A stretch of DNA of 64,000 bases from Rhina ancylostomus (Eukaryota): positions 13,518,860 to 13,582,859 of the forward strand of contig JARFYF010000119.1 in NCBI GenBank assembly GCA_030265395.1. The letters run 5' to 3'. Positions 47,820-48,250 of the stretch are shown here, piece after piece. The position numbers were made by a program, and so were the translations under genes. The notes below the pieces were generated by a model, which worked only from the letters and a program-made list of their open reading frames with translations, ran no database searches and was not told the DNA's origin. Within the stretch, counting starts at the first letter, position 1; every line of letters starts with the position of its first letter.

Positions 47820-48250
47820 AGTGGCCGTGGTAATGCGCTCGCTGCTCTGTCTCACTTACTCTGCTGTTGCTGGAGGCTCATTCCCTCAGAGCGCTTGCGC
47901 TCAGCCCGTTGCCGCCGGCGCCGCTTCGCACTCCTCGTAAACTGCTCGCCCCTCCCGCTCCCCCCCGGCCGCAGCCGCACAGTACCCGTCTCCTCCGCCG
48001 CCCTGCTCCCTCTGACTCCTCGCAGTCCTCTCCCTTGTGTTACTCCCCCACAACCATGTGCGCGATGCTGAGCCTCGGTCTCAACCGCAGCGTCGGAGAC
48101 ATTGACCACAGAGAAAGAGAAAGCCTGGCCAGCGAGAGTGGAGCTGCTTCCTACCTCCTGCCTGGCAAGTCTTAAAGGAGACCGGCAGCGCTGGTCGGCC
48201 CAGGACACTAGAGTTATTTGAAAGATTGCGATAGTAGCCGTATTCAAAGA
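47820..48250 (-). promoter_or_regulatory. CpG-island promoter and 5'UTR of the ZFPM gene
   Basis: Sharp rise in GC and CpG (gccgccggcgccgc, gcccctcccgctccccccggccgc) in an AT-rich, CpG-depleted window. Sp/KLF-type GCCCCTCCC box near 47948. Lies directly upstream of the ATG on the minus strand. Confidence 0.75.

What the first reader, a model, noticed from the sequence alone, without database searches (positions are those of the whole stretch)
47852..47881. uORF/alternative-donor switch that could swap out the NuRD motif in frame
Seen (minus): ggaATG AGC CTC CAG CAA CAG CAG A|GTAAGTGA. Unspliced, this is a 9-codon uORF (MSLQQQQSK*) ending ~160 nt before the main ATG, with its stop overlapping the donor. 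Spliced at this consensus GTAAGT donor it contributes 22 nt, phase 1, the same phase as the 40-nt NuRD exon, so MSLQQQQ replaces MSRRKQRNPRQIK on the same downstream frame. Inference: one 5' splice choice toggles between a NuRD-less product and a uORF-dampened NuRD-binding product. Phase agreement alone has a 1-in-3 chance.
Basis: partly seen in the sequence, partly recalled or inferred. Interest (0 to 1): 0.7.

Follow-up and report, generated by a model that had tools for sequence, protein, structure and literature searches.

The report
Ray FOG-2 isoform without NuRD motif
In the first exon of a ray's FOG-2 (ZFPM2) gene, a second splice donor likely joins a short upstream reading frame to the rest of the protein in place of the NuRD-binding tip; this form is annotated in a sawfish and a sawshark, but it is likely rare and the signal is lost in some other rays.

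Summary
The gene is ZFPM2/FOG-2 of a ray close to the sawfish Pristis pectinata. Transcripts of three related species reach above the upstream ATG (to 47928-47946), so the 9-codon uORF lies in the 5' UTR. That is 2 of 23 cartilaginous-fish species examined. Against a strong switch: 0-1 of 17-18 junction reads in a near relative and 0 of 6 contigs use the upstream donor. The ATG and the GT are both lost in one related species and, by inference, in Narcine; the donor is weakened in another. The uORF is no better conserved than the UTR beside it. uORF dampening, protein production and tissue regulation are untested. NuRD-less FOG isoforms are already known (mouse FOG1S, a short FOG2, fly Ush-A); the route here, a uORF that becomes the N-terminus by a proximal donor, is a variant. 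Verdict: a likely real, minor, patchily kept isoform.

The parts
47654..47946 (-). ZFPM2/FOG-2 exon 1 as covered by spliced contigs (5' end at least 47946; true TSS not mapped)
   Evidence: contigs reach 47946 and 47914 (organism A), 47928 (B), 47944 (D) and all splice at 47654
47852..47881 (-). uORF MSLQQQQSK*, 9 codons, out of frame with the main ORF in the unspliced exon; G at -3
47860..47881 (-). 22-nt alternative coding start (MSLQQQQ + 1 nt, phase 1) if the proximal donor is used
   Evidence: same peptide joined to exon 2 in P0123
47854..47859 (-). proximal (alternative) donor AGA|GTAAGT; 6 of 11 positions match the U1-complement consensus (consensus recalled), against 7 of 11 for the main donor
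47654..47859 (-). 206 nt removed when the proximal donor is used; holds the uORF stop, the main ATG and the whole NuRD motif
47654..47693 (-). 40-nt coding part MSRRKQRNPRQIK + 1 nt: N-terminal RRKQxxP NuRD-binding motif
   Evidence: motif and contact residues in PMC3020727 (passages)
47648..47653 (-). main donor AAC|GTAAGT, joined to exon 2 (and, in 4 reads, to the PR-domain exon)
47601..48300 (.). CpG island over the promoter and exon 1

Best explanation
Exon 1 of this ray's ZFPM2 holds two phase-1 donors, and the upstream one is likely used at a low level, which would turn the uORF into the N-terminus of a FOG-2 that lacks the NuRD motif but keeps the PR domain and zinc fingers. Shown: the anatomy, the uORF inside the transcript of related species, the dominance of the downstream donor, and gene models with the swapped N-terminus in two other species. 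Inferred: that the junction is used in this species, that the product is translated and fails to recruit NuRD, and that the uORF mildly lowers output of the main form (short uORF, 158-nt spacer, so leaky scanning and re-initiation are likely). The element is likely old in sharks and rays but loosely constrained: a minor, dispensable isoform rather than a master switch.
For: Exact predicted N-terminus in Pristis pectinata X2 and a one-codon-longer, still phase-1 version in the shark Pristiophorus japonicus X2. For another species' annotation, NCBI's pipeline is described as filtering rare introns and requiring each alternative variant to be supported by one long alignment or by RNA-seq of one sample (PMC5737279, passage). 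Spliced contigs cover the uATG in organisms A, B and D. Organism A shows no difference in 47852-47881; organism D keeps ATG, frame, GT and stop. Minor use: 0 of 12 junction reads in X20 and at most 1 of 5-6 in X21, 0 of 6 contigs. Loose constraint: organism B lost ATG and GT; a Narcine model that reads through the UTR has Gly and Ala where the window has TGA and GTA, which excludes both the ATG and the GT.
Against: I saw no read or contig with the upstream junction, and no RNA run known to be of this species was laid. I could not see the evidence behind the two models, nor the Pristiophorus DNA. The Pristis X2 model also carries an unusual downstream exon chain shared with X1, so its full structure may be a pipeline combination. 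Read depth was low (31 and 13 reads laid; 18% and 24% of each run read), tissues are unknown, and a junction about 90 nt from the 5' end is under-sampled, so 'minor' holds only for these samples.
Confidence: 0.6

Rival explanations
1. A selected, tissue- or stage-regulated switch: donor choice sets the ratio of NuRD-recruiting to NuRD-less FOG-2, and the same ATG dampens the NuRD form when the exon is not cut there.
For: The same N-terminus is annotated in a ray and a shark with phase kept. NuRD-less FOG isoforms with distinct partners or targets exist in mouse (PMC2785561; abstract, sections 15 and 19) and fly (PMC7891773; passages). Organism D's change inside the Gln tract is synonymous.
Against: Near-zero use in two runs and six contigs. 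Changes per base in the uORF are 0.167 (B) and 0.067 (D), against 0.083 and 0.068 in the UTR just downstream and 0 around the main ATG. Lost in B and Narcine, +5 G weakened in D. Phase can be kept without selection, because the CAG/CAA tract slips by whole codons (B has a 3-nt deletion there). None of 195 bony-vertebrate entries starts MSLQ.
Confidence: 0.2
2. The donor is not used in this species: an ordinary uORF with a chance GTAAGT, and the two models are pipeline products or leaks particular to those species.
For: No junction seen in my own data; similar patterns occur 19 times in intron 1; 21 of 23 species show no such model among the entries listed; several other odd N-termini joined to exon 2 appear in these annotations.
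Confidence: 0.2

Closest known systems
RefSeq-type models ZFPM2a isoform X2 of Pristis pectinata (XP_051879890.1) and of Pristiophorus japonicus (UniRef100_UPI00398F1C3E)
   Same: Same N-terminus (MSLQQQQ, MSLQQQLV) joined in frame to exon 2, no NuRD motif.
   Different: They are automatic models with no comment on the uORF, abundance or function.
Mouse FOG1S (Snow and Orkin 2009, PMC2785561; read: abstract, sections 15 and 19, passages)
   Same: FOG isoform without the NuRD motif; the FOG1 5' UTR has a conserved uORF and affects the long/short ratio.
   Different: FOG1S comes from an internal downstream ATG on the same mRNA, is truncated, and the authors found no alternative RNA; here an upstream ATG is spliced into frame and only 13 residues are exchanged.
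Short variant of mammalian FOG2 (Dale, Remo and Svensson 2007, PMID 17445768; not read, seen only as reference 22 of PMC2785561)
   Same: Same gene; cited as a 'similar variant' made in a different manner from FOG1S, with transcripts of different exon content implied. That it lacks the repression motif through an alternative transcript is recalled from its title.
   Different: Its exon structure could not be checked, so whether it also uses an upstream donor in exon 1 is open.
Drosophila Ush-A and Ush-B (PMC7891773; passages)
   Same: FOG-family isoforms that differ only in a short N-terminus (7 versus 14 unique residues); only the one with the motif binds NuRD.
   Different: Two major, protein-verified isoforms; the passages read mention no uORF or shared exon with two donors; no sequence likeness to MSLQQQQ was tested.

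Membership tests
ZFPM2/FOG-2 gene | N-terminal RRKQxxP NuRD motif | tested here: met
   MSRRKQRNP at 47693; consensus and contact residues from PMC3020727
ZFPM2/FOG-2 gene | PR domain and FOG-type CCHC fingers downstream on the same strand | tested here: met
   PF21182 and PF25445 over their cut-offs on contig C119, minus strand; reads join exon 1 to the PR exon
ZFPM2/FOG-2 gene | Orthologue of ZFPM2, not ZFPM1 | tested here: met
   last exon 98% identical to Pristis ZFPM2a; named hits among the 120 listed are ZFPM2/FOG2 or hypothetical; a second FOG gene lies on C17; no tree built
NuRD-less FOG isoforms (FOG1S, short FOG2, Ush-A) | Lacks Arg3-Arg4-Lys5 but keeps the zinc fingers | tested here: met
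   P0123 and P0007 sequences
NuRD-less FOG isoforms (FOG1S, short FOG2, Ush-A) | Protein detected and shown not to bind NuRD | not testable with these tools
   needs proteomics or pull-down
FOG1S-type translational isoform | Made from an internal downstream ATG on the unchanged mRNA | tested here: not met
   the swap needs a different splice and an upstream ATG
Regulatory uORF | Lies inside the 5' UTR and stops before the main ATG | tested here: met
   (related species)
Regulatory uORF | Conserved above the UTR background | tested here: not met
   two species with full DNA comparison only
Regulatory uORF | Translated and lowers main-ORF output | not testable with these tools
   no ribosome profiling or reporter data
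Regulated alternative 5' splice site | Junction observed in RNA | tested here: inconclusive
   two gene models have it; 0-1 of 17-18 reads and 0 of 6 contigs
Regulated alternative 5' splice site | Use varies between tissues or stages | not tested
   tissues of the laid runs are unknown

The most novel reading that the evidence does not exclude
Sharks and rays carry an ancient two-state element in FOG-2 exon 1: one ATG acts as a translational brake on the NuRD-recruiting co-repressor when the exon is intact and as the start codon of a NuRD-less FOG-2 when the proximal donor is chosen, so a single tissue-regulated splice choice flips both the dose and the sign of GATA co-regulation; it would be a third route, after internal initiation in mouse FOG1 and distinct N-termini in fly Ush, to the same on/off NuRD logic.
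Probability: 0.2. Interest if true: 0.55.

Novelty: new variant of a known kind. Interest (0 to 1): 0.33.

Why it matters
FOG proteins repress GATA targets through a 12-residue NuRD hook, and mouse and fly both make forms without it. A cleanly swapped form in cartilaginous fish would show repeated, separate routes to the same switch, and would tie a uORF and a splice choice into one element that a reporter and junction counts can test. As it stands the isoform already sits unremarked in public annotations, seems rare and is lost in some lineages, so its importance is modest. It also shows that the sequence-only prediction matched an independent gene model letter for letter.

Tried and rejected
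No RNA holder was on record for the stretch; I laid 8 of the 22 listed runs. A search for exon 2 inside the window found none; it lies about 92 kb beyond the window edge. Contigs of organisms C and F begin at 47857 and 47786 and say nothing on the ATG or donor. A search for short transcript-derived proteins with the swapped start gave 3 hits among 5 candidates, none starting MSLQ. The paralog ZFPM1 has an upstream GTGAGT at -186 with open, phase-1 ATGs at -256 and -325, but a search with that 46-residue peptide found no protein (weak evidence) and the ATGs lie among promoter-like motifs, so I do not count it as a shared design. Exon 1 folds no better than shuffles (z = 0.96): no structural switch is indicated. 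The 135-codon stop-free stretch upstream in the uORF frame has no ATG and was not pursued. Literature: searches listed no paper whose title or abstract start describes a uORF or upstream donor in ZFPM2 exon 1 (listings only; the library lacks most subscription papers and the 2007 FOG2 paper). No supplements were read. Earlier scan notes: nothing found.

Full report
Observation. On the minus strand an ATG at 47881 opens MSLQQQQSK*, ending at 47852, 158 nt before the ATG at 47693 that opens MSRRKQRNPRQIK. The donor AGA|GTAAGT follows 22 nt after the upstream ATG (intron from 47859) and the donor AAC|GTAAGT follows 40 nt after the main ATG (intron from 47653); both are phase 1. Use of the first removes 206 nt, including the uORF stop, the main ATG and the NuRD motif. 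In 5000 shuffles of the UTR this arrangement arose in 0.4-6% depending on how strict the donor is, and a loose version occurs 19 times in the intron inside the window, so the pattern alone is not strong evidence.

The gene. Reads and contigs splice from 47654 to an exon 139.8 kb away that is 159 nt long, phase 1 at both ends, and reads PLEDTVEDDEEE. Further on the same strand lie a PR-domain exon (PF21182) and an 841-codon open frame with FOG-type fingers (PF25445) that is 98% identical to ZFPM2a of the sawfish Pristis pectinata. The gene is ZFPM2/FOG-2 of a ray; a second FOG gene, which I take to be ZFPM1, lies on another contig. The N-terminus fits the RRKQxxP motif, and the FOG-1 residues that contact RbAp48 (Ser2, Arg3, Arg4, Lys5, Gln6, Arg10, Gln11, Ile12; PMC3020727, passages) are all present. 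MSLQQQQ has none of Arg3, Arg4 or Lys5.

Is the uORF transcribed? Yes in related species. In organism A (a near relative with three differences listed in exon 1, none in 47852-47881) two spliced contigs reach 47946 and 47914 and reads cover 47853-47933 at depth 4.1 and 2.7. Contigs of organisms B and D reach 47928 and 47944. The tool labels these contig runs RNA only as a guess, one as probably DNA, but the contigs cross a 140-kb intron. Contigs of C and F begin below the ATG, and contigs cannot map a start, so the share of transcripts that include the uORF is unknown.

Is the upstream donor used? For: among 72 cartilaginous-fish ZFPM2 entries (23 named species, 3 unnamed fragments), 38 start with the NuRD motif and 2 with the uORF peptide. 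The sawshark Pristiophorus japonicus isoform X2 starts MSLQQQLVRPLEDTVEDD, one codon longer and so still phase 1. A description of NCBI's pipeline for another species says rare introns are filtered and alternative variants must be supported by one long alignment or by RNA-seq from one sample (PMC5737279, passage); I assume the same held here and could not see the evidence itself. Against: no joint or loose end at 47860 was listed (threshold 3 reads, or one contig). In X20, 19 of 31 laid reads were partial, and 12 at the main donor plus 7 on a 35-nt repeat piece account for all; in X21, 8 of 9 partial reads are so explained (my arithmetic). That gives 0-1 of 17-18 junction reads, a 95% upper bound of 16-24%, or 28-43% if set against my estimate of about 9 reads crossing 47860, which allows for poor sampling near the 5' end. 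All 6 exon 1 contigs use the main donor; 4 of them span 47860. Only 18% and 24% of the two runs were read and the tissues are unknown.

Conservation is patchy. Intact: this genome, organism A and, by their models, Pristis and Pristiophorus. Weakened: organism D keeps ATG, frame, GT and stop but has GTAACT. Lost: organism B has ATA for ATG, no GT at the donor, and two indels in the uORF (one contig, depth 5.4). A Narcine bancroftii model that reads through the UTR aligns co-linearly as EGASSESRARETEQ against the window's E*ASSNSRVSETEQ; Gly and Ala at those codons exclude the ATG and the GT (inference from protein). Changes per base in the uORF (0.167 in B, 0.067 in D) are no lower than in the UTR just downstream (0.083, 0.068), whereas 47659-47719 has none and the stretch above the uATG has 0.02. 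Phase can survive without selection because the CAG/CAA tract slips by whole codons. None of 195 bony-vertebrate entries starts MSLQ, though large clusters were only sampled.

Mechanism. Most transcripts keep exon 1 whole, splice at 47654 and encode NuRD-recruiting FOG-2 behind a short uORF (shown in relatives). The uATG has G at -3 and the main ATG has A at -3; with 9 codons and a 158-nt spacer, leaky scanning and re-initiation should leave a mild brake (inference from general knowledge, untested). A minority likely splices at 47860, which deletes the stop and the NuRD part and puts the uATG in frame with exon 2 (supported by two models, not by my reads). The product would keep the PR domain and fingers and bind GATA factors but not RBBP4/NuRD (inferred). 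I give this minor, loosely kept isoform 0.6, a selected and regulated switch 0.2, and no use in this species 0.2.

Comparison. It works like known NuRD-less FOG isoforms: mouse FOG1S, made from an internal ATG and influenced by a 5' UTR that holds a conserved uORF (PMC2785561; abstract, sections 15 and 19); a short FOG2 variant that this paper cites as made differently (original not held); and fly Ush-A versus Ush-B (PMC7891773, passages). It is not a FOG1S-type translational isoform, because it needs a splice and an upstream ATG. Searches listed no paper on a uORF or upstream donor in ZFPM2 exon 1 (listings only, open-access library). PMC7761934, PMC7177584 and PMC11913303 were seen as passages only; the last restates the FOG1S result.

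Verdict. Observation confirmed, interpretation partly supported. A new variant of a known kind, already present without comment in two public annotations. Interest 0.33; a tissue with high use of the upstream donor would raise it to about 0.55.

Noticed in passing
47654 joined to G000:C119:13203464 (L005): In run X20, 4 of 12 junction reads go from exon 1 straight to the 122-nt PR-domain exon, in frame, skipping two acidic exons and keeping the NuRD motif. No such start was found in 270 protein entries.
   Followed up: partly
45301-46000: A second CpG island about 1.7 kb into intron 1 (G+C 0.55-0.62, CpG o/e up to 1.3); a possible alternative promoter or enhancer.
   Followed up: no
L002:1721-1860 (paralog on C17, minus strand): The ZFPM1-like paralog has a GTGAGT donor 186 nt before its ATG with open, phase-1 ATGs at -256 and -325, among CCAAT/CRE/GC-box-like motifs (names recalled); no protein with that peptide found.
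   Followed up: partly
47711-47713 (codon 7 counted from 47693 is at 47673-47675); motif 47693-47655: All 38 cartilaginous-fish entries with the motif read MSRRKQRNP, with Arg at position 7, where the 71 bony-vertebrate entries tallied in the same call have Ser. Position 7 faces solvent in the RbAp48 complex; that Ser7 is a phosphorylation site is recalled.
   Followed up: partly
exon 2, L004 (G000:C119:13426527-13426685): Models in six shark and ray species start at an ATG in a second frame of exon 2 (M-M/T-R/K-KNVCL) that stays open through exon 3 and, in the Pristis one read in full, rejoins the main frame where the 122-nt exon is skipped: either a longest-ORF artefact or another NuRD-less route.
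   Followed up: no
P0169 (Stegostoma tigrinum X2), P0185 (Rhineura floridana X4): Very short starts MK and MQ joined to exon 2 without the NuRD motif; origin not traced.
   Followed up: no
48078-48183: A separate low-depth contig of organism D lies upstream of exon 1 and continues beyond; could be an upstream or antisense transcript, or DNA.
   Followed up: no
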